Shown: positions 3,446-56,582 of the stretch, piece after piece | Layout: every line of letters begins with the position of its first letter | Numbering within the stretch: the stretch's first letter is position 1 | Sequence record: PX915676.1 | DNA from: a phage | Length of the DNA stretch: 64,000 bases | Reading direction: 5' to 3' (one strand) | Translations under genes and position numbers: made by a program | Notes under the pieces: model-generated | The model's input: the letters and a program-made list of their open reading frames with translations, nothing else | Databases searched by the model: none | Told to the model about the DNA's origin: nothing

Positions 3446-3474
3446 TTGACAGCCTTTTCCTTTATTATATAGTT
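3446..3474 (+). promoter_or_regulatory. sigma70-type early promoter (TTGACA-N16-TATAGT)
   Basis: Consensus -35 TTGACA at 3446-3451 and TATAGT at 3468-3473, about 45 nt upstream of first plus-strand gene. Confidence 0.55.
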
Positions 3475-5460: not shown

Positions 5461-5489
5461 AAGCCTCGCTATGAGGCTTTTTTCTTTTA
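5461..5489 (+). terminator. intrinsic terminator
   Basis: AAGCCTC-GCTAT-GAGGCTT hairpin followed by TTTTTTCTTTT. Confidence 0.8.
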
Positions 5490-8069: not shown

Positions 8070-8092
8070 GTAAGACAATTTGAATAAACATA

Positions 8093-8126
8093 AGGCGCTA
8101 CCTTAACGGGTAGTGCCTTTTCTTTT
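8093..8126 (+). terminator. intrinsic terminator
   Basis: GGCGCTACC-TTAAC-GGGTAGTGCC hairpin (one G-U pair) plus TTTTCTTTT. Confidence 0.8.
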
Positions 8127-9416: not shown

Positions 9417-9439
9417 AGCCGCCTTTGAGCGGCTTTTTG
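9417..9439 (+). terminator. intrinsic terminator
   Basis: AGCCGC-CTTTGA-GCGGCT hairpin + TTTTT. Confidence 0.7.
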
Positions 9440-9501: not shown

Positions 9502-9527
9502 GCCCCGGCTACGGCTGGGGCTTTTTT
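9502..9527 (+). terminator. intrinsic terminator
   Basis: GCCCCGGC-TACG-GCTGGGGC hairpin + TTTTTT. Confidence 0.85.
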
Positions 9528-10166: not shown

Positions 10167-10463
10167 ATGACTTTAGAAGTATATAAATTCCTTTTTGTAA
10201 GCTGTTTAACTATCAGCGTTCTAGGATTTATTGTTCTCAGAAACAAAGCAGCAAGCTGGGAGAGAATGTATAAATCCCTAGTCCGAGTGGATGAGATGTA
10301 TAATGAGAAAGTTAAAGTAACACTCAACGATCTTATTATGCAAGTTGAAGACAGAAACAAACGTCTTCAGAACCTCAATCATGAAGTGTTGCGCCTTGCT
10401 CGTGCTAATGAAGACTTGCGAGTGGCTATTGCTAAACAGCAGGAGATTAACAATGAAGCATGA
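10167..10463 (+). CDS. membrane-anchored coiled-coil protein
   Basis: Track ORF 98 aa; N-terminal TM (FLFVSCLTISVLGFIVL) then charged helical region. Confidence 0.55.
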   Translation: MTLEVYKFLFVSCLTISVLGFIVLRNKAASWERMYKSLVRVDEMYNEKVKVTLNDLIMQVEDRNKRLQNLNHEVLRLARANEDLRVAIAKQQEINNEA

Positions 10464-10710
10464 TATTAATACAGCCCCTGTAGTCAAGCAACTGAAAGAC
10501 CTGAAGGTGGGGAGTGTTTTTGAAACTGTTCCACCTAAAAATAAAATATATCTTACAGTAAAGCTAGATTCCTCAACCGTTTATTCAGCTAGTTGGAAGC
10601 CTGACGAAAGAGTAGTAGTAGATCTCACTTCGGATAGAATAACAATGTTGAGAAAAGATACTGTTGTTCAGGTAGTTGATAATGCTCGACTTACCAATAA
10701 GGTGGATTAA
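10453..10710 (+). CDS. small paralog family protein (G[DSE]VF motif family), member 1
   Basis: ATG 10453 with AGGAG SD; LKVGSVF...KIYLTV motif shared with 9 other small ORFs. Confidence 0.6.
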   Translation: MKHDINTAPVVKQLKDLKVGSVFETVPPKNKIYLTVKLDSSTVYSASWKPDERVVVDLTSDRITMLRKDTVVQVVDNARLTNKVD

Positions 10711-10712
10711 AG

Positions 10713-10949
10713 ATGAAAGTTAATATTAAATCCGATCGTACAATGCTTCGCTTAAATAACATGAAGCCGGGGGTTCTGTTTGAGCGTAAAGAATCCCTTT
10801 ACATTAGAACTGACACATTATACGCAGATAACTATGTCAACTGTGTTGATGTGGTAACTGGAAAGCTCATGCCTTTTAAACGGGATGAAGTTTGCCAAGT
10901 TCGCAGTGATCTCCACATAACCAATATAGAGACTAAAGATGAAGATTAA
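10713..10949 (+). CDS. small paralog family protein, member 2
   Basis: Track ORF; MKPGVLF...LYIRTD motif. Confidence 0.6.
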   Translation: MKVNIKSDRTMLRLNNMKPGVLFERKESLYIRTDTLYADNYVNCVDVVTGKLMPFKRDEVCQVRSDLHITNIETKDED

Positions 10950-11196
10950 TCTTGAAGTAAATGAACCGTCTTTGTGTGTTGGTGATCTCAAACTTGGAGA
11001 TGTATTCCAAATCAGGGAAACACGAGCAGATTTCTACATGGTTGTTCAGCTATTTACCCCACAGATTGAAGAGACCAAGCCTTCTGATGGTGGTTGTGTC
11101 GTCCTTAGTCTAACAAATAAGCAAGTCCTTAAGCTTAGCTCGAAAAGCAAGGTTGTTCTTCTTCATGATGTTGTTATTACCAACAAGGGTAAGTGA
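10939..11196 (+). CDS. small paralog family protein, member 3
   Basis: Track ORF; LKLGDVF...FYMVVQ motif. Confidence 0.6.
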   Translation: MKINLEVNEPSLCVGDLKLGDVFQIRETRADFYMVVQLFTPQIEETKPSDGGCVVLSLTNKQVLKLSSKSKVVLLHDVVITNKGK

Positions 11197-11415
11197 ATGG
11201 AAATTAAAGTAGTTGATTATCCTAAATATGCAAATGCAGAAGACGTTAAAAGTGGTGATGTTTTCTCTTACGATAGACGTTTCTGGCTGATGTTGGAAGA
11301 TAAAACTCCTGATGGTTTGTGTAAGGCCGCCGATCTGAACAGTGGTTCTGTTGAAGTCTTCGGTTTATCAACCACTGTTATGCCACGTCCTGATCTGTGT
11401 TTATCCCAAAAGTAA
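11197..11415 (+). CDS. small paralog family protein, member 4
   Basis: Track ORF; VKSGDVF...FWLMLE motif. Confidence 0.6.
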   Translation: MEIKVVDYPKYANAEDVKSGDVFSYDRRFWLMLEDKTPDGLCKAADLNSGSVEVFGLSTTVMPRPDLCLSQK

Positions 11416-11424
11416 CATCGACTT

Positions 11425-11529
11425 ATAGCCCTTGTGTTTATCAGAGGGCTATGTGAGGGTGTTCCTCATTAACTTATTAATTCAGGCATATGCCACACCG
11501 CTAGGGAGAGCTTGCTCGAACATCCGGTG
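11425..11529 (+). promoter_or_regulatory. conserved intergenic element, copy A (hairpin ATAGCCC/GGGCTAT + core CTAGGGAGAG-hairpin-CTCGAACATCCG)
   Basis: Near-identical core and compensatory stem changes relative to copy B at 16791-16904. Confidence 0.5.
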
Positions 11530-11773
11530 CTAGACTAAAACCTGTTAATTTTCGAAAGACTTTCTGATATGTAGGGGTACGTATTAGTTTGGGATTCAGG
11601 AGACTTCCTAGGGGTAGGGAGTCTTCACCAGTTGGAATAAGAGATAGCTCTAGAACCTGAACTCTTAGGCAGAGAAGGTCGGCAATGAGTACGCGGTCAG
11701 GATTAGTCTACTGACTAGGGCTATCCCTTATATCAACTGGCAATAATGCTTCCACTAACAAAGAGAGATAGGT

Positions 11774-11914
11774 ATGAAAGTATCAACCAAACGTATGAAC
11801 CGCCCTGAACGTATGGATGCAGTAGCTAATGGTGCTCTGAAACTGGAAGGCTTTTGGATTCATGCAATGTCAGCCATCCGTAACAAGCAAGGTGGTTGGA
11901 CGTATAACAGTTAA
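11774..11914 (+). CDS. small ORF (46 aa)
   Basis: ATG with GAGAGATAGG SD-like sequence; MKVSTKRMNRPERMDAVANGALKLEGFWIHAMSAIRNKQGGWTYNS; followed by terminator. Confidence 0.35.
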   Translation: MKVSTKRMNRPERMDAVANGALKLEGFWIHAMSAIRNKQGGWTYNS

Positions 11915-11924
11915 TAAATAAAAA

Positions 11925-11953
11925 GGCTGCCTTCGGGTGGCCTTTGTTGTTTT
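11925..11953 (+). terminator. intrinsic terminator
   Basis: GGCTGCC-TTCG-GGTGGCC hairpin + TTTGTTGTTTT. Confidence 0.7.
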
Positions 11954-11996
11954 AATTAAGGGACAACTCTTACTTAAACTAACAAGAGGTGCTTAT

Positions 11997-12350
11997 ATGA
12001 GGCGCATGGTTAAAGATTGGGTAACTAAATCAGGTCTTCGTGCTGTGATTATGCACATGAACGACTCCCATTTTTGTGGATATGTAGAGCTACCAGACAG
12101 CTTAAAACATAAAAACTTCACCGGATATAACGGAAAGGAAGAGGTTTGTTATGTAAATGTTCATGGTGGTGTCACATGGCAAGACACCCTTGAAGAGATG
12201 AGTGGTTTAAATACAATCGGATTTGATTGTGCCCATGCAGGTGATAAGACACGGTTCAACCCTAACGGGGTTACAAGAACAGAAGCGTTCTGCATCAACG
12301 AATGCGAACAAATGGCTGAACAACTGAGAGATCTCGAATCAAATGTCTAA
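11997..12350 (+). CDS. hypothetical protein
   Basis: Track ORF trimmed to ATG 11997 (MRRMVKDW...) with AGAGGTG SD. Confidence 0.6.
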   Translation: MRRMVKDWVTKSGLRAVIMHMNDSHFCGYVELPDSLKHKNFTGYNGKEEVCYVNVHGGVTWQDTLEEMSGLNTIGFDCAHAGDKTRFNPNGVTRTEAFCINECEQMAEQLRDLESNV

Positions 12351-12519
12351 GCAAACAATCAAGAATACACAAGCTGGTTACTCTTATGTTAACTCTCCTT
12401 GCTGCGGTGCTCGTATTAATCTGGTTAAGGAAGAGGTTCGTATCGTTCAGCGTGGCGCTACTGTTGTTCGTTCATGCTGTGTCTGTGGTAATGATATTTT
12501 CATTAAAGGTAAAGTATGA
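12343..12519 (+). CDS. small Cys-rich protein (58 aa)
   Basis: ATG overlapping upstream gene end; SPCCGAR...SCCVCGND pattern; below track cut-off. Confidence 0.4.
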   Translation: MSKQTIKNTQAGYSYVNSPCCGARINLVKEEVRIVQRGATVVRSCCVCGNDIFIKGKV

Positions 12520-12740
12520 TTATCGTTCGCTCTGAGCCTAAAGATAACACTTTTGGTAGTCTCCGTAATGGTGATGTGTTCTCCCTAGAGATAGATGGGG
12601 ATACAAAACCTCCTTTATATATGAAGGTTATGCACAGACATGCTATCTGTATAAACAACCCTGAAACAAGATTTACGTTTGACAGGGGTTGTCCTGTCAA
12701 ATTTTATCAAGCTACCCTAAACGTCAGGAGAGTAGGATGA
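12516..12740 (+). CDS. small paralog family protein, member 5
   Basis: Track ORF; LRNGDVF...LYMKVM motif; ATGA overlap with upstream stop. Confidence 0.6.
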   Translation: MIIVRSEPKDNTFGSLRNGDVFSLEIDGDTKPPLYMKVMHRHAICINNPETRFTFDRGCPVKFYQATLNVRRVG

Positions 12741-12988
12741 AAAACTTCCAAGCTGCACCGATAACTAAAGTGATCGAAGTTGACGATGTAATGATGACTG
12801 TTCCTCTGAACACTCGTTACATTGCAATTGACAAGATGGGTTATGTATGGGCTTGGAAGATTAAGCCTAGCTATAACGCACTGTTTGATGAGTTTGTTTG
12901 TACTGGTACGTATAGTCCTACATTCTTAGGCTTATTTGGAGAGTTTGAAGGTCAGTATAAAATCATAACTCTCCCTGCTTGTGCTTGA
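12737..12988 (+). CDS. hypothetical protein
   Basis: Track ORF trimmed to ATG 12737 with AGGAG SD. Confidence 0.55.
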   Translation: MKNFQAAPITKVIEVDDVMMTVPLNTRYIAIDKMGYVWAWKIKPSYNALFDEFVCTGTYSPTFLGLFGEFEGQYKIITLPACA

Positions 12989-12995
12989 GGTTATT

Positions 12996-13160
12996 ATGTT
13001 CAAGTGGTTTAAATATCTCTTCCATCTCCATGAATGGGAAACTGTAAAAGAGATTCGTTTAAATGTGTATGATGAGTTCGGTAAACTAGAAGACACAGGG
13101 ACTCGTTATATACTTCGATGTAAAACATGTGGTCATATCACCAAACGAGATATGATCTAA
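12996..13160 (+). CDS. small zinc-ribbon-like protein (54 aa)
   Basis: ATG with GAGG SD; ...RCKTCGH... ; below track cut-off. Confidence 0.4.
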   Translation: MFKWFKYLFHLHEWETVKEIRLNVYDEFGKLEDTGTRYILRCKTCGHITKRDMI

Positions 13161-13168
13161 ATAATTCT

Positions 13169-13244
13169 GCGCTCTTAGCTCAATGGATAGAGCAGTAGCC
13201 TTCTAAGCTATTGGTTACAGGTTCGAGTCCTGTAGGGCGCACCA
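13169..13244 (+). tRNA. tRNA-Arg (anticodon TCT)
   Basis: Hand-folded cloverleaf: acceptor GCGCTCT/AGGGCGC, D-stem GCTC/GAGC, anticodon stem GTAGC/GCTAT with loop CTTCTAA, T-arm ACAGG-TTCGAGT-CCTGT, discriminator A and encoded CCA. Confidence 0.85.
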
Positions 13245-13249
13245 CATTT

Positions 13250-13365
13250 AGGGCTAGTATGGGTGCGGCACCAGAGTTAGTGTATCCCTGTTGAGGCAAG
13301 TGCTTTTATAACAGTGGGAATTGCTTTCTTAGTGAGCTTCTGGTTCGATTCCAGATAGTCCACCA
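13250..13365 (+). other. tRNA-like remnant or atypical tRNA (canonical T-arm and acceptor-like helix, body does not fold)
   Basis: TCTGG-TTCGATT-CCAGA T-arm at 13339-13355; 6-bp helix GGGCTA (13251-56)/TAGTCC (13356-61) then CCA; about 80 nt between cannot be folded into D and anticodon arms by eye. Confidence 0.25.
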
Positions 13366-13384
13366 AATCAAATAGGAGGTAGTT

Positions 13385-13666
13385 ATGAGTTGGGGTGGTG
13401 TAATATCCTTAATCTGTATCTTCCTTGTCTGCATAGCCCTTACAGGCTGCGTACAGAGCCGTCCTGATGGATGGTGTGCAGTAGCAGTGGAAGGTGTTTG
13501 TGTTTCTCGCTGGCATAAAGGTGAGAAGGTTCCTTCTGGTGAAATTGATATGCGTTACAGTGGTATCTCATGTCTGAATGGTGCAGCAGTAGATGAGGAG
13601 ACTAAAACCTTATCCGATGCGCAGTGGTGTGGTGGCTCTACAGTTACCACTGGTAAGGAGTGGTAA
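13385..13666 (+). CDS. lipoprotein (signal peptide with lipobox LTGC)
   Basis: Track ORF; AGGAGG SD; MSWGGVISLICIFLVCIALTGC... Confidence 0.65.
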   Translation: MSWGGVISLICIFLVCIALTGCVQSRPDGWCAVAVEGVCVSRWHKGEKVPSGEIDMRYSGISCLNGAAVDEETKTLSDAQWCGGSTVTTGKEW

Positions 13667-13667
13667 T

Positions 13668-13829
13668 GTGACTATTGAAGAACTCATTAGAACTCTTGAA
13701 AACTTATCTGTTACTTGTGGTCCAGATGCTATCGTCTACATCGAAGAACCTTCAGGGAATGAATACCCTGTGAAAGAGGTTCTTGAGTACTCAGTAGGAG
13801 ATCTTTCATCAGTAACCCTAAGACATTGA
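13668..13829 (+). CDS. hypothetical protein
   Basis: Track ORF trimmed to GTG 13668 with AAGGAG SD 8 nt upstream. Confidence 0.45.
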   Translation: MTIEELIRTLENLSVTCGPDAIVYIEEPSGNEYPVKEVLEYSVGDLSSVTLRH

Positions 13830-13836
13830 GGTGTAT

Positions 13837-14085
13837 ATGACAGCTCATTATTGGAATACAAAGAAGCTTCTTGAAGAGATGGCTGGGGGTAGTAGGTTCC
13901 AGTTAAACTCCATGCTTCGAATGGATGCCCGCTCTTTACGTTTCCAAGTAAAGATTGGTAACTTCAGTGATGGCCTTTATTATACCTTGAAAGAAAGGAT
14001 TAAGAAGACTCACTTCATCATATATGGACTCAAACCGAGAACATATGTTAACTACATGTATTGGGATACATGCTACGATAATTGA
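13837..14085 (+). CDS. hypothetical protein
   Basis: Track ORF trimmed to ATG 13837 with GAGGTG SD. Confidence 0.55.
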   Translation: MTAHYWNTKKLLEEMAGGSRFQLNSMLRMDARSLRFQVKIGNFSDGLYYTLKERIKKTHFIIYGLKPRTYVNYMYWDTCYDN

Positions 14086-14092
14086 GGTTATT

Positions 14093-14314
14093 ATGTTATT
14101 TGAAGCTAAGCAAACATTACCAGTAGTTCCTTTGTCTACACTTCTTAGTGGGAGTGCTTTTAGACATGATAATGGTTTTTGGATTAAGGGCGACCAAGAG
14201 GTTGGAGGGTATATTACCTGCATCAACATCTGCAACGGCGTTGTTGACGGATTTCGTCCAGCCGCTGAAGTCACCCCTCAATCCAACGCAAAGGTTGTAG
14301 GTTTAGTTTACTAA
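14093..14314 (+). CDS. small paralog family protein (divergent member, LSGSAF...FWIKGD)
   Basis: Track ORF trimmed to ATG 14093; initiation region TTGAGGTTATTATGTT identical to that of ORF 12996. Confidence 0.5.
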   Translation: MLFEAKQTLPVVPLSTLLSGSAFRHDNGFWIKGDQEVGGYITCINICNGVVDGFRPAAEVTPQSNAKVVGLVY

Positions 14315-14365
14315 GGAGCCTGTATTAGTTGTTTTGGTGGCGGTGAAGTAGATGACGATGATGAC

Positions 14366-14497
14366 ATGGAATCCAACGGTACATGTCCTGATTGTGGATG
14401 TGAGACATGGGATGGGGTGTCTGTATACCCTGCCTGTAGTTACTCACCAGTGATCTGTAAAACATGTGGAGATCAACCTTGTGATCAGTCCTGTTAG
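14366..14497 (+). CDS. small Cys-rich protein (43 aa from ATG; 57 aa if initiated at in-frame ATT 14324)
   Basis: CPDCGCETW...CSYSPVICKTCGDQPCDQSC; AAGGAG at 14313-14318 sits 5 nt before in-frame ATT rather than before the ATG. Confidence 0.3.
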   Translation: MESNGTCPDCGCETWDGVSVYPACSYSPVICKTCGDQPCDQSC

Positions 14498-14714
14498 TAT
14501 CTTGATTGTCTACTTGACAGGTATGGTGATAGTTTCAGCTCTGATAAAATTCCTTGACGTAAAAGGTAGTGTGGAGTTCAGAGGGTGGAACAACGAACCA
14601 AACCTATCAAAGATAGCAATTATAGTTTTTCTATGGCCTATCGTTGCTGTGGTTTTTATATCCCTTGTCTTGTGGGCTGCCCTGTGGGATTTTATACTCC
14701 CTAACAAGAACTAA
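14466..14714 (+). CDS. hypothetical membrane protein (two predicted TM segments)
   Basis: Track ORF; start uncertain (GTG 14466 or ATG 14523). Confidence 0.45.
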   Translation: MEINLVISPVSILIVYLTGMVIVSALIKFLDVKGSVEFRGWNNEPNLSKIAIIVFLWPIVAVVFISLVLWAALWDFILPNKN

Positions 14715-15009
14715 GAACTTATCGTGAAGGATTCTTACGAGAGTCCTTTGAGATAGGACTTCAGATCTCCTATCAAACTAACATTCACGTAACTAGCCCA
14801 TAAGGGCGTTACCCTTTAATAACCCAGCCCACTAAGGGGGCGGGAGTTTAGTGCTGGATTGGCTTTACGCTTATTCCTACAAAGGCAACCGATTGTTAGA
14901 TCTTACATGCAATATTAATTAATAGGATAAGGGAGGATTCGTCCCCTCCCCCTATTTTATTGAATCTTTATCTAAGCAAGTCTTATATAAACGTTTAATT
15001 GGAGGATGT

Positions 15010-15321
15010 ATGAAAGCACGAAGAACTATATGGACTCCGATGCAGATTGAAAATCTTCGGAGACTAATCAAAGAGTACTCAGTTCAAGAAGTTGCTCAGA
15101 TTATGAATGTAACGGAGAATGCTGTTAACACAGCTTGCACTAAATTCGGAATATCAAGAGCTTCAATCCGAGTTAAATGGTCTGAAGAAGAAGACCAGTT
15201 CCTTATCCGTAACGCTGGGTTCATGTCTATTCAGAGAATGGCTGACATGCTCGGTAGAAGTTATGCTGCTGTACAGAACAGGGCATGTATGCACCTTAAT
15301 ATTAGCCTCAAACTTAAATAG
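15010..15321 (+). CDS. putative DNA-binding regulator with two tandem HTH-like repeats (GcrA/Myb-like pattern)
   Basis: Track ORF; GGAGG SD; WTPMQIENLRRL...VQEVAQIMNVTENAV and WSEEEDQFL...MSIQRMADMLGRSYAAVQNR repeats. Confidence 0.55.
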   Translation: MKARRTIWTPMQIENLRRLIKEYSVQEVAQIMNVTENAVNTACTKFGISRASIRVKWSEEEDQFLIRNAGFMSIQRMADMLGRSYAAVQNRACMHLNISLKLK

Positions 15322-15329
15322 GAATCAAT

Positions 15330-15578
15330 ATGAAAATCACATATAAGAAAGAGGAAGTAGAAGCAGTAGAGCTAAGCTCTCTAGCTAATGGTTCTGTGTT
15401 TAAATTCCCACACAATAAAGATCTTTATGTGAAAGGGGTTGTTACCTTAAGTCCTAACATCAAAATCCCAGATAACCGGATACCTACTCTCCGGCTAGGT
15501 GATGGGGTTGTTTCAGCCCCTCTTGGTCGTTGTCAGGTTATCCCTGTGTCAGCTGAACTTTTAGTGAGTGGTTGCTAA
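15330..15578 (+). CDS. small paralog family protein, member 6
   Basis: Track ORF; LANGSVF...LYVKGV motif. Confidence 0.6.
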   Translation: MKITYKKEEVEAVELSSLANGSVFKFPHNKDLYVKGVVTLSPNIKIPDNRIPTLRLGDGVVSAPLGRCQVIPVSAELLVSGC

Positions 15579-15823
15579 TGAAAATCATCCCAAAGAAAAA
15601 GGATAATACGGTACGATTGGAAACAATCATTCCCGGAAACCCCTTCGTGGTTCAGCACGGAAGTGCCTCTCCTCAGTATTATATGAGGGTTGAAAATGCT
15701 TCTTGTAACATCCGTATAGCCAGTGGCTGGGTTCCTGTAGTGAATCTATCCACAGGTGTACTATCTGTTAAAGGTCTTGATGATCAGGTAGAAATGATTC
15801 GTATGTCTGTGGTTCAGGAGTGA
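15578..15823 (+). CDS. small paralog family protein, member 7
   Basis: Track ORF trimmed to ATG 15578; IIPGNPF...YYMRVE motif. Confidence 0.55.
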   Translation: MKIIPKKKDNTVRLETIIPGNPFVVQHGSASPQYYMRVENASCNIRIASGWVPVVNLSTGVLSVKGLDDQVEMIRMSVVQE

Positions 15824-15825
15824 GA

Positions 15826-16071
15826 ATGAGCACGATACATATTAAGGTTCACAACAAAAAAGAAAAGAAACTCTTTGTTAAAGATCTGTCAACCGCTGAC
15901 ATCTTTACTTTAAAAGATGATGACAGTCAGGTCATTTATTTGATGATGCCTCTATCTGGTGGATATCGCAGAGCAGTTAATTTAGGTACAGGCGAACCTC
16001 GTCCTGTTTCTGACACTCTTGAAGTTGGCGAGAAGTTTGCCAAAGCAGAGATCATCTTAACTCCGATGTAA
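15826..16071 (+). CDS. small paralog family protein, member 8
   Basis: Track ORF trimmed to ATG 15826 with AGGAG SD; LSTADIF...IYLMMP motif. Confidence 0.55.
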   Translation: MSTIHIKVHNKKEKKLFVKDLSTADIFTLKDDDSQVIYLMMPLSGGYRRAVNLGTGEPRPVSDTLEVGEKFAKAEIILTPM

Positions 16072-16304
16072 GGGTAAGTAAGTGAAAACAAAAGCATATT
16101 CTTATGATGATATGATTAACCAGAAAGGCTTCGGTCAACGACAGCCTGACGGTTCGATTATCTGGTTTGTAAACGGACAGAAAAAGGTAGCTAAATAAGC
16201 CCTCTTCTCTCCTCCTTTTAGTACTATGACGCCTCTCTGTGGGCGGCCCAATTTGCGTAGGGAATTCCCTCTACGCAGCCATGACTTTTTAAGGAATTTC
16301 CCCT

Positions 16305-16538
16305 ATGTCTAAAGTAAGCGCAATCGATGCAATCCGTCAACCGTTCCAGTTCCAATCCAAATCAACCCAAACCTTCAGCGAACCTAAGCAAATTCGCTTG
16401 GGTGGCACGGAGAAAACTGTGTTTGATCTGGCTAAAAACAAGAGCGTTACCGTAGTTGATGGCGGTACTCTGGTTAACGTTTCACACCGCATTCGCACTG
16501 GCAAAACTGCCAAAGATCGTGCTAAGAAAGGTGAGTAA
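16305..16538 (+). CDS. hypothetical protein
   Basis: Track ORF 77 aa. Confidence 0.55.
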   Translation: MSKVSAIDAIRQPFQFQSKSTQTFSEPKQIRLGGTEKTVFDLAKNKSVTVVDGGTLVNVSHRIRTGKTAKDRAKKGE

Positions 16539-16780
16539 TGAAAATAGGGCAACCAGCTAAGGATGTTCTAGCGAAGATTAGTGATATCTCTATTGGGGAA
16601 GTTTTCTCAGCAGAGCACTTTTCAAGTTACTACATGAAAATCCCTGACACTAAAGTAGAGGGTTGCATCATCCCTGCCAACGCAGTTAACCTGAACACAG
16701 GACATCTATCTGCATTCAAACCTGATTCACAGGTTACTGAGATCAAGGATGCTTATCTCGCATTTGGTGGGAATAAATAG
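16538..16780 (+). CDS. small paralog family protein, member 9
   Basis: Track ORF; ISIGEVF...YYMKIP motif. Confidence 0.6.
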   Translation: MKIGQPAKDVLAKISDISIGEVFSAEHFSSYYMKIPDTKVEGCIIPANAVNLNTGHLSAFKPDSQVTEIKDAYLAFGGNK

Positions 16781-16790
16781 AGTAACATCT

Positions 16791-16904
16791 ATAGCCTTCT
16801 TCGGAGGGCTATATGAGTTATTCTGACTCAACTAACCTAATCTTAATATATTTCCCGTATGGGGCCGATGCTAGGGAGAGGAACATTCCTCGAACATCCG
16901 TCGG
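16791..16904 (+). promoter_or_regulatory. conserved intergenic element, copy B
   Basis: Hairpin ATAGCC/GGCTAT, core CTAGGGAGAG...CTCGAACATCCG, closing stem CCGA/TCGG; matches copy A with compensatory stem changes. Confidence 0.5.
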
Positions 16905-17012
16905 ATAGATATTTTAAGAGCAGGTTATCCACAGATATTGGGTAATATCTTTTTTGGATTTAAAGCTTGGCTCTTTTCGGAGAGTCCTTTTTTAAATTCA
17001 ACGAGAGGAAAT

Positions 17013-17165
17013 ATGTCTAAATTAGATTTAAAACTGCTAGCAGCAGCGGTAGTGATTTGTGCACTAGCACTGGTAACGCAGAGAACATCTGGATTTATTC
17101 AGTGTTTCTTTTCTGGACAATCCACTTATCAGTGGGTTATTGACGAGTGTAAACAACAGGAGTAA
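17013..17165 (+). CDS. small hydrophobic protein (50 aa)
   Basis: Track ORF trimmed to ATG 17013 with GAGAGGAA SD; LLAAAVVICALALV segment. Confidence 0.4.
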   Translation: MSKLDLKLLAAAVVICALALVTQRTSGFIQCFFSGQSTYQWVIDECKQQE

Positions 17166-17167
17166 GT

Positions 17168-17530
17168 ATGAATACACGTCCCATCAAGGGCAACGTTAAT
17201 ATTGAAACTCTGAACAAGGTTGCATCAAACCTCGGTGGAATGTCCAACGATGAGCTTGAGCAAGAACTTGCTTGGATTGCAAATGGTATCAAAGTTGCTA
17301 AAGGTAAGATTGCTCGTGAGCAAAGTAATATGAAAGCTCACAAGTATATCATCCGTCGTGCAAATATGTTACCGGAGCGGGTTGTACATCTTGCCCGTAA
17401 GAACTACGAAAGTGCTAAAGAAGCCCTGCTTGAAGCAGAATTTCAGAAGCATCAATTTATGAACAACTATCGAAACTTCCGAGATATTCTCTATATCCGT
17501 AAATCGATTGAGTTGATTAAAAACCAATAG
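17168..17530 (+). CDS. hypothetical protein
   Basis: Track ORF 120 aa. Confidence 0.6.
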   Translation: MNTRPIKGNVNIETLNKVASNLGGMSNDELEQELAWIANGIKVAKGKIAREQSNMKAHKYIIRRANMLPERVVHLARKNYESAKEALLEAEFQKHQFMNNYRNFRDILYIRKSIELIKNQ

Positions 17531-17541
17531 AGGTTGGTATA

Positions 17542-36105: not shown

Positions 36106-36114
36106 TAATGTATA
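36106..36114 (+). promoter_or_regulatory. TAATGTATA motif (candidate phage sigma-dependent promoter element)
   Basis: Exact 9-mer about 37 nt upstream of ATG 36151; same 9-mer at 43133 (+) and 52851-52859 (-), each upstream of a gene start. Confidence 0.45.
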
Positions 36115-55529: not shown

Positions 55530-56582
55530 TTAGTTTGCTCCAAATGCCCCTAAGACACCACCTAAGATATTACTACCTGCTGTGGATAACCAGTTAGACT
55601 GACCTTTCTGTTGAGAAAGATTAGAACCTCCAATCATAGGACCAGCCATTCCAGATTGCCCACCTGAGTTGTTATAGGAACTCCAAGCATTCTGAGTCTG
55701 TTGGTTAGGAGAGAAAGCACCCATACGACCTGCAATACCTAAACCAGTGATACCAGCACCTAGGAGCTGTTGTCCAGTATTAACCCCCGGAGCAGCATTC
55801 TTAATTGTATACCCAGCCATTGGGCTTACACTATTTAATACATTAAGTTGGTTGTTAAGCTGATTCCACCCATACTGCTGAGAGCCAATAGCGTTCTGCC
55901 AATTAATATCAGCTTGAGCTTGAGCTTGTTGCTGTTGCAGATTACCAGCCATCAGCTGATTCTGAATAGCTTGTTGAGTTGCCTGAACGCCTTGAGCACC
56001 AAGATTGAGGTTCTGTCCAGCTAAACCAGACTGAGCACCAAGCAACCCTCTCTGGAAGTTCTGATCTTGTTGCAGAGCACTTACACCCATATTCTTACCA
56101 CTGATAGTACGAGACAGGTTAGTGTTAGCGTCATTCAAAGCAGCCCCTTGAGCCGCAGCCCTACGGAGAGAGCCAGAGTCAGAGCCATTGCCAAGAGAGA
56201 CATTAGAAGCTGCTTTGCTAGTAGCTTGTGCAAGGGCTGAGTTATTCAAACCTTTACTAAAGTTATTAACCCCTTCAGCTGTTACTCCACCACCATTAAC
56301 AATATTCTGATACTGCTGGGCAAGAGCGTTTAATTGGTCCAACCCTTGCTGTGTACGTGGTGTATACATATCAGCTAGTTTCTTCTGAGTAGTAGAAGCT
56401 GCTAAGTTGTTCAGAGCACCTTGTTGGTTGCCATTAAACCCAGCCAGCTGTTGGGAGATGAATCCCGGATCGTTGTTCTGCATATTCTGAGCATTAGCAA
56501 CAATCTGCTTCAGCAGGGCATCAACCTGAGAGGAAGGGGCCACTGTGGTTTTGCTAGAAGCTGATTTTCCAAATAAAGACAT
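55530..56582 (-). CDS. Q/N/G-rich virion protein, paralog B
   Basis: Track ORF; MSLFGKSASSKTT..., G.NGNQQGALNNLA shared. Confidence 0.65.
   Translation of the reverse strand: MSLFGKSASSKTTVAPSSQVDALLKQIVANAQNMQNNDPGFISQQLAGFNGNQQGALNNLAASTTQKKLADMYTPRTQQGLDQLNALAQQYQNIVNGGGVTAEGVNNFSKGLNNSALAQATSKAASNVSLGNGSDSGSLRRAAAQGAALNDANTNLSRTISGKNMGVSALQQDQNFQRGLLGAQSGLAGQNLNLGAQGVQATQQAIQNQLMAGNLQQQQAQAQADINWQNAIGSQQYGWNQLNNQLNVLNSVSPMAGYTIKNAAPGVNTGQQLLGAGITGLGIAGRMGAFSPNQQTQNAWSSYNNSGGQSGMAGPMIGGSNLSQQKGQSNWLSTAGSNILGGVLGAFGAN

What the first reader, a model, noticed from the sequence alone, without database searches (positions are those of the whole stretch)
11425..11529. Conserved ~110-nt intergenic element with compensatory stem changes (second copy 16791-16904)
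Both copies begin just after a stop codon with a 6-7 bp hairpin (ATAGCC(C)/(G)GGCTAT), followed by a related 50-60 nt stretch and the core CTAGGGAGAG-[small hairpin]-CTCGAACATCCG. The core is closed by a stem that differs in sequence but keeps pairing (CACCG/CGGTG versus CCGA/TCGG), and the inner hairpin also covaries (GAG-CTTG-CTC versus GAGG-AACATT-CCTC). Covariation argues for a functional RNA structure or structured regulatory site rather than chance.
Basis: seen in the sequence. Interest (0 to 1): 0.55.

Follow-up and report, generated by a model that had tools for sequence, protein, structure and literature searches.

The report
New structured RNA in phiEco32-like phages
Two related ~120-base stretches between early genes of this phiEco32-like coliphage fold into the same multi-helix RNA shape. 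That shape is kept by compensating mutations across three phage genera, is in no RNA catalogue, and in the second copy leads into a stretch complementary to the host's anaerobic ribonucleotide reductase (nrdD) mRNA leader.

Summary
The window is a Kuravirus (phiEco32-like) genome. Both copies (11412-11535 and 16778-16909, + strand) lie in the early region transcribed by host RNA polymerase, each starting at the stop codon of the last gene in an array of small paralogous genes.

On 27 distinct sequences from Kuravirus, Suseptimavirus and Salmonella Moazamivirus, four helices are 99.2% paired, against 34-46% when partners are slid. Eight pairs show two-sided changes. Many G.U pairs make sense only on the + strand.

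An invariant 7x7 internal loop (CUAGGGA/GAACAUC) shows non-Watson-Crick covariation: A/G 21, C/A 7, A/A 4, C/G 0. A covariance model finds exactly two copies in the window. The element matches no Rfam family, tRNA, sigma-70 promoter, phage-sigma (gp36) promoter or terminator.

My best reading is an RNA-level module. A bistable hairpin at the stop codon marks the mRNA boundary, and a protein- or fold-recognition core heads a stable non-coding RNA. Function is inferred, not shown.

Copy 2 continues into 24-31 nt antisense to the E. coli nrdD leader, which also holds a perfect DnaA box, and then an intrinsic terminator. This makes it a candidate phage sRNA. Rivals are put/nut-like antitermination, a pure processing site, a ribozyme or riboswitch, and a DNA-level DnaA site.

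The parts
11412..11535 (+). Copy 1 of the structured RNA domain (full covariance-model match)
   Evidence: Model R1 scores 115.2 bits, E 2e-23. Sequence read.
16778..16909 (+). Copy 2 of the structured RNA domain (full covariance-model match)
   Evidence: Model R1 scores 140 bits, E 1e-28. Sequence read.
11414..11463 (+). Copy 1, P0 plus P1. P0 pairs AACAUC (11414-11419, overlapping the stop codon) with GGUGUU (11458-11463). P1 pairs 11424-11433 with 11444-11453.
   Evidence: RNAalifold on 11 copy-1 sequences. The variable P0 pair is CG:5, UG:4, UA:2. P0+P1 folds at -20.8 kcal/mol and P1+P2 at -20.1.
11454..11468 (+). Copy 1, P2 hairpin (UGAGG-GUGUU-CCUCA), mutually exclusive with P0
   Evidence: The 4th pair is G-C in copy 1, U-A or C-G in copy 2, and U-A in Moazamivirus.
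11485..11494 (+). Copy 1, P3 hairpin (GGC-AUAU-GCC)
   Evidence: Pairs are CG:14/GC:13 and CG:21/GC:6, all paired.
11495..11530 (+). Copy 1 core. P4 closing stem is 11495-11500/11525-11530. The internal loop is CUAGGGA (11501-11507) opposite GAACAUC (11518-11524). P5 is 11508-11511/11514-11517.
   Evidence: P4 has three pairs with two-sided changes. The loop is invariant apart from the covarying A/C-G/A position.
11564..11626 (+). Downstream of copy 1: two hairpins (11564-11587 and 11599-11626). Each is capped by the invariant UAGGGGUA (GGGG loop).
   Evidence: RNAalifold shows stem covariation, for example AU:7/GC:4, GC:7/AU:4 and CG:7/UA:4. See alignment A3.
16783..16830 (+). Copy 2, three helices. 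P0 pairs UAAC 16783-16786 with GUUA 16817-16820. P1 is 16790-16799/16804-16813 with a UUCG loop. P2 is 16814-16818/16826-16830.
   Evidence: In ECBP2-type copies a compensated change keeps P2 and breaks P0.
16854..16904 (+). Copy 2, P3 and core. P3 is 16854-16856/16861-16863. P4 is 16865-16870/16899-16904. The internal loop is 16871-16877/16892-16898. P5 is 16878-16882/16887-16891.
16833..16927 (+). Copy-2-type long-range helix P6, enclosing P3-P5 as a three-way junction. UAACCU 16833-16838 pairs with AGGUUA 16922-16927. UCUUAA 16841-16846 pairs with UUAAGA 16914-16919.
   Evidence: Present in the RNAfold MFE and centroid and in the RNAalifold consensus. The inner part has AU-to-UA and CG-to-UA changes. 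The outer part is invariant, so it is untested.
16912..16942 (+). Stretch antisense to the E. coli nrdD mRNA leader. It contains a perfect DnaA box, TTATCCACA, at 16925-16933.
   Evidence: blastn finds hits in 399 E. coli genomes just upstream of nrdD, on the opposite strand. DnaA box. GGTTATCCACA is invariant in all copy-2-type sequences.
16933..16950 (+). Small hairpin AGAUAUU-GGGU-AAUAUCU. It is Kuravirus-specific and is absent from two of the three Moazamivirus-type sequences aligned (7-11 and the metagenomic relative L083).
16969..16995 (+). Intrinsic terminator (7-bp stem plus a U run) that ends the copy-2 unit
   Evidence: Terminator scan. The stem covaries, UG:4/CG:4/GC:2. It is annotated as a terminator in the 7-11 record.
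11197..11415 (+). Upstream gene of copy 1 (72 aa, phrog_6570), last of a tandem array of paralogues at 10345-11415
16538..16780 (+). Upstream gene of copy 2 (80 aa, phrog_12612, with a weaker match to phrog_6570), same superfamily as the gene before copy 1

Best explanation
The two copies are paralogues of an uncatalogued, strand-specific structured RNA domain of about 120 nt. It is carried on the early transcripts that host RNA polymerase makes from phiEco32-like phages. I propose that it acts at the RNA level as a boundary-and-scaffold module.

1. **Boundary.** A long hairpin abuts the stop codon of the preceding gene. It is P1, extendable by P0 to 17-19 bp. It caps the upstream mRNA and marks where the non-coding RNA begins. 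It may be a double-strand-specific processing site.
2. **Switch.** P0 and P2 exclude each other and are almost equally stable. A ribosome terminating on the stop codon would therefore flip the fold.
3. **Core.** The core is P3 plus P4, the invariant 7x7 non-canonical internal loop, and P5. It is a recognition platform for a protein or a tertiary fold, and it makes the downstream RNA a stable, discrete species.
4. **Copy 2.** This RNA continues into a 24-31 nt stretch antisense to the host nrdD leader and ends at an intrinsic terminator. It would then be a phage sRNA acting on host anaerobic ribonucleotide reductase expression.
5. **Copy 1.** Here the effector part is instead two GGGG-loop hairpins.

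**Shown:** the structure, its strand, its conservation, its copy number, its context and the complementarity.

**Inferred:** processing, stability, protein binding and any effect on nrdD.
For: **Identity and context**
- The window is a Kuravirus, and both copies lie among early genes.
- Known sigma-70 early promoters lie far upstream (PMC4281155).

**Structure**
- Pairing is 99.2% against 34-46% in slid controls. Eight pairs are compensated. G.U pairs occur only on the + strand.
- RNAalifold gives consistent consensus folds for each copy type.
- The + strand of copy 2 folds with z = -4.9; the - strand gives -2.15.
- Non-Watson-Crick covariation next to P5 is A/G 21, C/A 7, A/A 4 and C/G 0. From memory of isostericity tables, this pattern fits a sheared pair.

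**Distribution**
- Exactly two copies occur in the window.
- The element is conserved into Salmonella Moazamivirus, where the neighbouring protein is only 29% identical.
- It is absent from Cronobacter phage GAP52.

**Boundary and switch**
- P0 involves the stop-codon region and covaries in copy 1.
- P0+P1 and P1+P2 are isoenergetic.

**Copy 2 as a discrete RNA**
- It ends at a conserved, covarying terminator.
- It carries 24 contiguous base pairs to every E. coli nrdD leader variant seen, and 30 of 31 with one variant.
- No host match exists for the copy-1 region.
- The phage flanks match the E. coli leader better than the 60 other leader sequences compared, mostly from other Enterobacterales species: 21-22 of 32 positions against a median of 14-15.
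- By my own hand comparison of the sequences printed, the three departures from perfect complementarity in the right flank are wobble-preserving transitions. No script tested this.
Against: - No transcript ends, processing sites or stable RNA species are known for this region. I found no transcriptome data, and the key phiEco32 papers were not readable.
- The seed is partly buried in helix P6 in the predicted fold.
- The invariant 11-mer is also a perfect DnaA box. The host sequence it matches is itself conserved as a DnaA box across Enterobacterales. A DNA-level reading explains the core without any RNA pairing.
- Copy 1 has no host complementarity, so the shared domain's own role rests on anatomy alone.
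- Sequence diversity is small: three to five lineages, and many of the 27 sequences are close relatives.
- Genes downstream of the copy-2 terminator have no room for their own promoter. The terminator must therefore leak or be overridden.
Confidence: 0.4

Rival explanations
1. Processive antitermination signal, put-like (RNA alone) or nut-like (RNA plus a phage protein). The nascent element would bind the elongating host RNA polymerase. The polymerase would then read through the intrinsic terminators downstream: 16969-16995 after copy 2, and 11922-11945 after copy 1.
For: - The early operons are long and served by promoters at one end only (PMC4281155; PMC8948821 for 7-11).
- + strand terminator-like sites are enriched: 33 found against 14 expected.
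- Copy 2 lies 60 nt upstream of a conserved terminator. Downstream genes have no room for a promoter.
- Two diverged copies per genome with compensatory changes, plus non-canonical G.A pairs, recall putL and putR (PMC9378689).
- A boxA-like CUCAUUAAC follows P2 in copy 1.
Against: - Strong + strand terminators at 8092, 9417 and 9502 lie upstream of copy 1 with no element before them.
- Phage 7-11 has a single copy about 19 kb from its validated early promoters.
- The size (about 120 nt, five helices) and fold differ from the 70-nt, two-stem put RNA.
- The boxA-like match is poor in copy 2 and in 7-11, and there is no boxB-type GNRA-like pentaloop.
Confidence: 0.17
2. A pure mRNA processing and stability site, like the RNase III sites between T7 early genes. 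The P0-P1 hairpin would be cut, leaving a protective 3' hairpin on the upstream mRNA. The rest would be spacer structure that shields long untranslated RNA from Rho and RNases. No trans-acting RNA would be involved.
For: - The site lies at the end of gene arrays on a polycistronic transcript made by host RNA polymerase.
- A 17-19 bp irregular hairpin starts at the stop codon in all three lineages.
- The untranslated regions are G-rich and highly structured.
Against: - Fourteen invariant nucleotides in the P4/P5 internal loop, with isosteric covariation, point to specific recognition rather than generic stability.
- Conservation across genera far exceeds what a protective hairpin needs.
- This reading does not explain the host complementarity of copy 2.
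Confidence: 0.17
3. A self-cleaving ribozyme, or a ligand-binding (riboswitch-like) aptamer that controls the terminator downstream.
For: - The element has an invariant core in an internal loop and junction, with variable helices and loops.
- In copy 2 a three-way junction sits 60 nt upstream of a terminator.
- Ribozymes are often found between phage genes (own knowledge).
Against: - No Rfam ribozyme or riboswitch matches, even at E <= 10.
- The hammerhead-like letters (CUAGGGA..GAAC) miss essential core positions and the third stem.
- The candidate antiterminator pairing (AAGAGC with GCUCUU) is not kept where the terminator varies (the phiEco32 G-to-A change).
- Copy 1 has no adjacent terminator.
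Confidence: 0.08
4. A DNA-level element. It could be a DnaA-binding site (roadblock, titration or origin function) with flanking hairpins extruded or used as single-stranded DNA, or it could be a promoter.
For: - A perfect DnaA box lies at 16925-16933. It is one of only two in 64 kb.
- It is invariant across genera.
- It is identical to the DnaA box conserved in enterobacterial nrdD leaders.
Against: - The box lies outside the shared element, and copy 1 has none.
- There is no cluster of boxes or other origin-like architecture nearby.
- The helices use G.U pairs that are A.C mismatches on the other strand.
- Sigma-70-like hexamers inside copy 2 are not conserved in relatives (alignment A2).
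- The gp36 promoter motif is absent.
Confidence: 0.1

Closest known systems
HK022 putL/putR antiterminator RNAs
   Same: Two diverged copies per phage genome lie on early transcripts made by host RNA polymerase. The structure is kept by compensatory changes, non-canonical purine pairs are present, and terminators lie downstream (PMC9378689).
   Different: put is about 70 nt with two stems and sits just downstream of the early promoters. This element is about 120 nt with five helices and lies kilobases from any known promoter, after earlier terminators. There is no sequence or Rfam similarity.
T7/T3 early-mRNA RNase III processing sites
   Same: Conserved irregular hairpins lie between cistrons of a host-transcribed early polycistronic RNA. 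The P0-P1 hairpin (17-19 bp with small internal loops) starts at the stop codon.
   Different: The T7 sites are single hairpins of about 50-60 nt. Here the hairpin is followed by a separate conserved three-helix core, and cleavage is untested.
3'-UTR-derived, terminator-ended bacterial and prophage sRNAs (for example DicF-type phage-borne regulators)
   Same: The copy-2 unit ends in an intrinsic terminator with a U tail. An A/U-rich stretch precedes the terminator. The unit carries long complementarity to a host mRNA leader next to the Shine-Dalgarno sequence.
   Different: It is encoded by a virulent phage and carries a large structured 5' domain shared with a second RNA. The complementarity (24-31 nt) is far longer than usual seeds and coincides with a DnaA box. 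Expression is unproven.
Phage T4 stable RNAs C and D (rnaC/rnaD; own knowledge)
   Same: They are a pair of related, structured non-coding RNAs of about 120-140 nt with unknown function, in a phage early/tRNA region.
   Different: There is no detectable sequence or structure similarity. The T4 RNAs are processed with the tRNA cluster, whereas here the single tRNA-Arg (13169-13244) is not adjacent.
Loop E / sarcin-ricin type internal loops
   Same: The 3' strand GAAC follows a hairpin, an A.G pair closes the helix, and that pair shows sheared-type A/G-C/A-A/A variation.
   Different: The 5' strand is UAGGGA, not AGUA. The loop is 7x7 with a possible central G-C pair. The resemblance is recalled from memory and is a lead, not a test.

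Membership tests
Any Rfam 15 family | Covariance-model score at or near the family threshold | tested here: not met
   The gathering scan of the whole window finds only tRNA-Arg. Scans at E <= 10 of both intergenic regions give no hit on the element.
tRNA / tmRNA | Cloverleaf detected by ARAGORN or by Rfam RF00005 | tested here: not met
   Only tRNA-Arg at 13169-13244 is found.
phiEco32 gp36 (phage sigma) promoter | Single element tAATGTAtA, 6-8 bp upstream of the start (PMC8948821) | tested here: not met
   No match within either copy. Exact matches lie at 36106, 43061, 43133 and 52851.
Sigma-70 promoter | -35/-10 hexamers with 16-18 bp spacing, conserved among relatives | tested here: not met
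   The only site is a 9-of-12 match inside copy 2 (16823-16852). Its -10 is not kept in 7-11, pSal or ECBP2-type sequences (alignment A2).
Intrinsic terminator (for hairpin P1) | G+C-rich hairpin followed directly by a U tract | tested here: not met
   P1 is followed by (A/G)UGAG with no U run, and the terminator scan does not call it.
HK022 put RNA | About 70 nt, two stem-loops in a V shape | tested here: not met
   The element is about 120 nt with five helices, P1-P5.
HK022 put RNA | Located just downstream of the early promoters and upstream of all early terminators | tested here: not met
   The strong sigma-70 sites lie at 3446, 5769 and 6218. Terminator-like sites at 8092, 9417 and 9502 precede copy 1.
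HK022 put RNA | Binds the RNA polymerase beta' zinc-binding domain and suppresses termination | not testable with these tools
   This needs transcription assays.
Lambda-type nut site | boxA (CGCUCUUA / GCUCUUUAACAA) followed by a boxB hairpin with a GNRA-like pentaloop | tested here: not met
   Copy 1 has CCUCAUUAAC, 8 of 10 to boxA. Copy 2 and 7-11 need an insertion. No hairpin has a GNRA-like pentaloop: loops are RUAU, UUCG or variable. Consensus sequences are from memory.
T7-type RNase III site | Irregular hairpin of about two helical turns between cistrons of an early polycistronic RNA | tested here: inconclusive
   P0+P1 gives 17-19 bp with small internal loops in copy 1, copy 2 and 7-11. 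In ECBP2-type copy 2, P0 is broken. Cleavage is untestable here.
Hammerhead ribozyme | Three-stem junction with the CUGAUGA and GAAA core | tested here: not met
   The core here is a two-strand internal loop, CUAGGGA/GAACAUC. There is no Rfam hammerhead hit at E <= 10.
Terminator-ended trans-acting sRNA (copy-2 unit only) | Intrinsic terminator with a U tail at the 3' end | tested here: met
   Terminator at 16969-16995. It is conserved and covarying.
Terminator-ended trans-acting sRNA (copy-2 unit only) | Conserved stretch complementary to a target mRNA near its ribosome-binding site | tested here: met
   16912-16942 is antisense to the nrdD leader. By my count on the sequence read, the target lies about 17-50 nt upstream of the nrdD AUG. 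It gives 24 contiguous bp, or 30 of 31 with one variant.
Terminator-ended trans-acting sRNA (copy-2 unit only) | Accumulates as a discrete RNA and changes target expression | not testable with these tools
   This needs Northern blots or RNA-seq and reporter assays.
DnaA-dependent origin or DnaA-regulated site | DnaA box consensus TTATCCACA | tested here: met
   An exact box lies at 16925-16933 and is invariant in relatives. It lies 3' of copy 2, outside the shared element.
DnaA-dependent origin or DnaA-regulated site | Cluster of boxes next to an AT-rich unwinding element | tested here: not met
   No second exact box lies within 38 kb. One-mismatch boxes are not clustered here.

The most novel reading that the evidence does not exclude
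A virulent coliphage encodes a modular family of non-coding RNAs built on one shared structured scaffold. One member (the copy-2 unit, about 16780-16995) would be a trans-acting antisense regulator of the host anaerobic ribonucleotide reductase operon nrdDG. It would pair over 24-31 nt with the most conserved part of the nrdD leader, a stretch the host itself keeps fixed as a DnaA box. Phages of this group that carry their own nrdD (GAP52) lack the RNA.
Probability: 0.25. Interest if true: 0.8.

Novelty: new variant of a known kind. Interest (0 to 1): 0.6.

Why it matters
Structured non-coding RNAs of virulent phages are poorly charted. This is a clean, testable example.
- It is a compact fold with covariation across three genera.
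- It has an invariant non-canonical loop that should have a specific partner.
- It has a bistable hairpin tied to a stop codon.

If the copy-2 RNA really targets the nrdD leader, it would show a lytic phage steering host deoxynucleotide supply with an sRNA. That would add a new layer to host takeover. It would also explain why relatives that carry their own nrdD lack the element.

Kuraviruses are used in phage therapy collections, so knowing their regulatory RNAs has practical value for engineering them.

Even if only the structural claim holds, the alignment and model define a new RNA family for databases.

Tried and rejected
1. **Phage-sigma promoter.** Rejected: the gp36 consensus is absent.
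2. **T7-like single-subunit polymerase promoter** (CTAGGGAGA resembles TATAGGGAGA). Dropped: kuraviruses use host RNA polymerase with their own sigma factor (PMC8948821), and the motif lies inside a covarying RNA loop.
3. **Known RNA families, ribozymes and riboswitches.** No Rfam hit.
4. **tRNA-like element.** No ARAGORN or Rfam tRNA hit. A BLAST lead to an annotated tRNA-Ala near window 14866-14962 was not confirmed by Rfam.
5. **More distant relatives.**
   - The IMG/VR core-pattern scan returned only Kuravirus and Moazamivirus genomes plus one apparent chance match, L005.
   - The metagenome scan was too loose. It returned 120 loci, of which only close relatives scored with the model.
   - The P1-pattern scan gave mostly chance hits. 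Two weak P1-P2-like sites (L155, L190; 27-29 bits) were pre-selected by the pattern and are not counted.
6. **GAP52.** No copy in the 36.6 kb scanned.
7. **Antiterminator pairing between P6 and the terminator.** It is not kept where the terminator varies.
8. **G-quadruplex in the G-runs after copy 1.** The loops are too long, and stem covariation argues for hairpins.
9. **Pairing of the conserved UCCACA with upstream sequence.** It is not conserved.
10. **Whole-RNA duplexfold against the nrdD leader.** Uninformative for long RNAs. I counted pairs by hand instead.
11. **Salmonella nrdD leader.** Not obtained:
    - The genome scan's best 80 loci lacked Salmonella.
    - The plasmid collection had none.
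    - The IMG/VR scan gave two unidentified hosts.
12. **Primary phiEco32 papers** (PMC3275717, PMC2587145). Not held.
13. **One literature search was mis-specified and useless**.
Full report
**What the window is**

A megablast of 10900-17600 finds 143 phage records, led by phiEco32-like coliphages (TH06, MN05, SU10, NJ01, KBNP1711) at 90-94% identity. In the phiEco32 record, copy 1 lies between genes 113 and 112. Copy 2 lies between genes 91 and 90. All these genes are on the strand that corresponds to the window's + strand. Published work places this region in the early class.

- In SU10 and phiEco32 the sigma-70 early promoters sit far upstream, before CDS125 and between CDS120 and 121 (PMC4281155).
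- The phage sigma factor gp36 uses the motif tAATGTAtA upstream of genes 6, 13, 26, 40, 58 and 68 (PMC8948821).
- In the window the strongest sigma-70-like sites are at 3446, 5769 and 6218 on the + strand.
- Terminator-like hairpins are enriched: 33 found against 14 expected. + strand sites lie at 5461, 8092, 9417, 9502, 11922 and 16969.

**The observation**

- The exact words GCTAGGGAGAG and CTCGAACATCCG each occur only at the two sites in 64 kb.
- P1 is longer than reported. It has ten pairs in both copies, and copy 2 has a UUCG tetraloop.
- The closing stem P4 has six pairs. The inner hairpin P5 shares GAG/CUC and differs from the fourth pair on.

**Relatives**

- Copy 1 is found in 99 GenBank phage records, all from Escherichia or Shigella phages.
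- Copy 2 is found in 104 records, including six from Salmonella phages of the 7-11 group at 72-74% identity.
- These Salmonella phages belong to a different family-level taxon, Grimontviridae, genus Moazamivirus.
- EK010 is classified in Suseptimavirus.
- Next to the element, the upstream protein is only 29% identical between the window and 7-11. The non-coding stretch is therefore far better kept than its coding neighbour.
- Scans of IMG/VR and of metagenomes added only close relatives.
- Cronobacter phage GAP52, the other member of the 7-11 subgroup, has no copy in 36.6 kb of its early and middle region.

**Structure**

I collected 32 distinct sequences and aligned 27 of them (A2). I tested a four-helix structure: P1 with 9 pairs, P3 with 3, P4 with 6 and P5 with 5.

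- 99.2% of 609 cells are standard pairs. Sliding the partners by 1-3 columns gives 34-46%. No shuffle out of 500 reaches the observed pairing or covariation score.
- Eight pairs change on both sides. Examples:
  - P3: CG:14/GC:13 and CG:21/GC:6.
  - P4: CG/UA/AU/GU, then GC:17/AU:10, then AU:14/CG:10/GC:3.
  - P5: GC:14/AU:4/CG:3.
- 58 cells are G.U or U.G. On the other strand they would be A.C mismatches, so the structure belongs to the + strand, which is the sense of early transcription.
- Hairpin P2 (GAGn..nCUC) is misaligned by MAFFT. Read directly, its fourth pair is G-C in copy 1, U-A or C-G in copy 2 and U-A in Moazamivirus.
- The 14 loop nucleotides CUAGGGA/GAACAUC are invariant except for the position next to P5. 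There the 5' and 3' bases are A/G in 21 sequences, C/A in 7, A/A in 4 and never C/G.
  - The C/A state appears in copy 1, in copy 2 and in 7-11, so it arose more than once.
  - From memory of isostericity tables, this pattern fits a sheared purine pair.
  - Written antiparallel, the loop reads C.C, U.U, A.A, G-C, G.A, G.A, A.G. It could be a continuous non-canonical helix of the loop-E kind. This is a lead only.
- A covariance model built from A2 finds just the two copies in the window, at 140 and 115 bits. The next hit scores 14 bits.

**A switch at the stop codon**

RNAalifold on each copy type adds a helix P0. It pairs the conserved (G)UAAC(A)UC at and after the stop codon with sequence just 3' of P1.

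- In copy 1 the variable P0 pair is CG:5, UG:4, UA:2.
- In copy 2, P0 is compatible in most sequences. In ECBP2-type phages it is broken by the same double change that preserves P2.
- P0 and P2 use overlapping nucleotides, so they exclude each other.
- P0+P1 and P1+P2 are almost equal in energy: -20.8 against -20.1 kcal/mol in copy 1, and -18.9 against -19.7 in copy 2. The extended hairpin of 17-19 bp forms in 7-11 as well.
- Because the stop codon lies in or next to the 5' strand of P0, a terminating ribosome should favour P1+P2. This is inference.

**What follows each copy**

After copy 1:
- A 358-nt untranslated region holds two more hairpins, at 11564-11587 and 11599-11626.
- Each is capped by the invariant UAGGGGUA, and their stems covary.
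- The 46-codon gene 112 homologue follows, and then a terminator at 11922.

After copy 2:
- RNAfold and RNAalifold pair UAACCU (16833-16838) with AGGUUA (16922-16927), and UCUUAA with UUAAGA. This encloses P3-P5 in a three-way junction.
- The inner part shows AU-to-UA and CG-to-UA changes between Kuravirus and Moazamivirus. The outer part is invariant, so it is untested.
- Then come the invariant GGUUAUCCACA, a small hairpin, a conserved A/U-rich stretch and a covarying intrinsic terminator at 16969-16995.
- The next gene starts 17 nt after the terminator, so it depends on read-through.
- The + strand of this region folds with z = -4.9. The - strand gives -2.15.

**An unexpected host match**

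A blastn search of the copy-2 region against 5,426 complete E. coli genomes hits 399 of them at one place. The hit is 14 nt upstream of the nrdD start codon, on the strand opposite to nrdD.

- In the nrdD sense the leader reads ..UUUCCCAAUUUCUGUGGAUAACCUGUUCUUAAAAAUAUGGAGCGAUCAUG.
- The phage + strand RNA 16912-16942 is complementary to it at 30 of 31 positions, with one G.U and one U.U.
- 24 contiguous pairs hold for the other E. coli leader variant as well.
- The copy-1 region has no E. coli match at E <= 1.
- The host core TGTGGATAACC is a consensus DnaA box. It is kept in nrdD leaders of 61 of the 81 enterobacterial nrdD loci examined (the 80 genome loci plus E. coli strain 7/2), from Escherichia to Yersinia, Serratia and Dickeya.
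- The phage flanks fit the E. coli leader best: 21-22 of 32 flank positions against a median of 14-15.
- By my own hand comparison of the sequences printed, the three departures from perfect complementarity in the right flank all keep a wobble pair at the RNA level. They are A-to-G in Kuravirus, and C-to-U and A-to-G in 7-11. The numbers are small, so this is weak support for selection on RNA pairing.
- The window has no NrdD homologue. GAP52, which lacks the element, encodes its own NrdD.
- I could not obtain the Salmonella leader, which would be the sharpest test.

**Interpretation**

That the element is a functional RNA structure is well supported; I put this at about 0.9. What it does is inferred. 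I favour a boundary-and-scaffold module at 0.4.

- P0/P1 caps the upstream mRNA and may be a processing site.
- The invariant loop with P3-P5 is a recognition platform.
- The downstream parts are effectors, of which copy 2 looks like a terminator-ended antisense RNA against nrdDG.

The rivals stand as follows.

- **Antitermination (put- or nut-like).** It is attractive because of the long one-ended early operons and the terminator after copy 2. It fits poorly with the terminators that precede copy 1 and with the single distant copy in 7-11.
- **A pure processing site.** It does not explain the invariant loop.
- **Ribozyme or riboswitch.** It cannot be excluded in silico, but it has no database support.
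- **A DNA-level DnaA site.** It explains the 11-mer after copy 2, but not the shared, strand-specific, G.U-containing helices.

**Novelty**

- There is no Rfam family for this element.
- The phiEco32, 7-11 and SU10 papers I could read do not mention it.
- The two primary phiEco32 papers were not available, so prior description cannot be fully excluded.
- I rate it a new variant of a known kind: a new family of phage-encoded structured RNA.

Noticed in passing
window 16912-16942 (+); E. coli locus L236 1501-1550: The stretch 3' of copy 2 is the reverse complement of the E. coli nrdD 5' leader, next to its Shine-Dalgarno sequence. Pairing is 24 contiguous bp, or 30 of 31 with one strain variant. 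The phage flanks match E. coli better than other enterobacteria.
   Followed up: partly
window 16925-16933 (+) and 55581-55589 (-): These are the only two exact DnaA boxes (TTATCCACA) in 64 kb. The first is invariant across Kuravirus and Moazamivirus. It equals the DnaA box conserved in nrdD leaders of many Enterobacterales. The E. coli leader has two such boxes about 70 nt apart.
   Followed up: partly
window 11564-11587 and 11599-11626 (+): Two hairpins downstream of copy 1 carry the identical apex UAGGGGUA (GGGG loop) on covarying stems. The core of the element also contains UAGGG. Five CTAG sites cluster in 11501-11718, although CTAG is under-represented in the window (148 found against 260 expected).
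   Followed up: partly
window 10345-11415 and 15330-16071 plus 16538-16780 (+): These are tandem arrays of paralogous small early proteins of about 75-85 aa, function unknown (phrog_6570, 12612, 7431, 16423, 7832, 9955, 10911). Each copy of the RNA element follows the last member of an array. In 7-11 and pSal-SNUABM-01 the gene before the element belongs to the same superfamily.
   Followed up: partly
L017 (phage EcoN5) 12616-12735 and 14134-14253: EcoN5 has two identical copy-2 elements, caused by a tandem duplication of the gene 93-89 block. That genome therefore has three copies in all.
   Followed up: no
L011, L014-L016, L018 (ECBP2-type phages), copy 2: In this lineage copy 2 carries a copy-1-type P1 apex (CCCUUGUGAGUAUCAGAGGG instead of CCUUCUUCGGAGG). 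This suggests sequence exchange between the two copies.
   Followed up: no
L155 5463-5590 and L190 2925-3028 (unrelated IMG/VR contigs): P1-P2-like motifs (TATAGCC..GGCTAT-G-yGAG..CTCA) lie just upstream of genes and score 27-29 bits with the model. The loci were pre-selected by a pattern that contains P1, so this may be chance.
   Followed up: partly
L235 (Cronobacter phage GAP52) and the window: GAP52 lacks the element but encodes its own NrdD (58.6% identical to E. coli NrdD). The window has the element and no NrdD homologue.
   Followed up: partly
window 8092-8119, 9417-9434, 9502-9521, 11922-11945 (+): Several strong intrinsic-terminator-like hairpins lie inside the early, same-strand gene block. 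The count is 33 sites in 20 kb against 14 expected. How early transcription passes them is unexplained.
   Followed up: no
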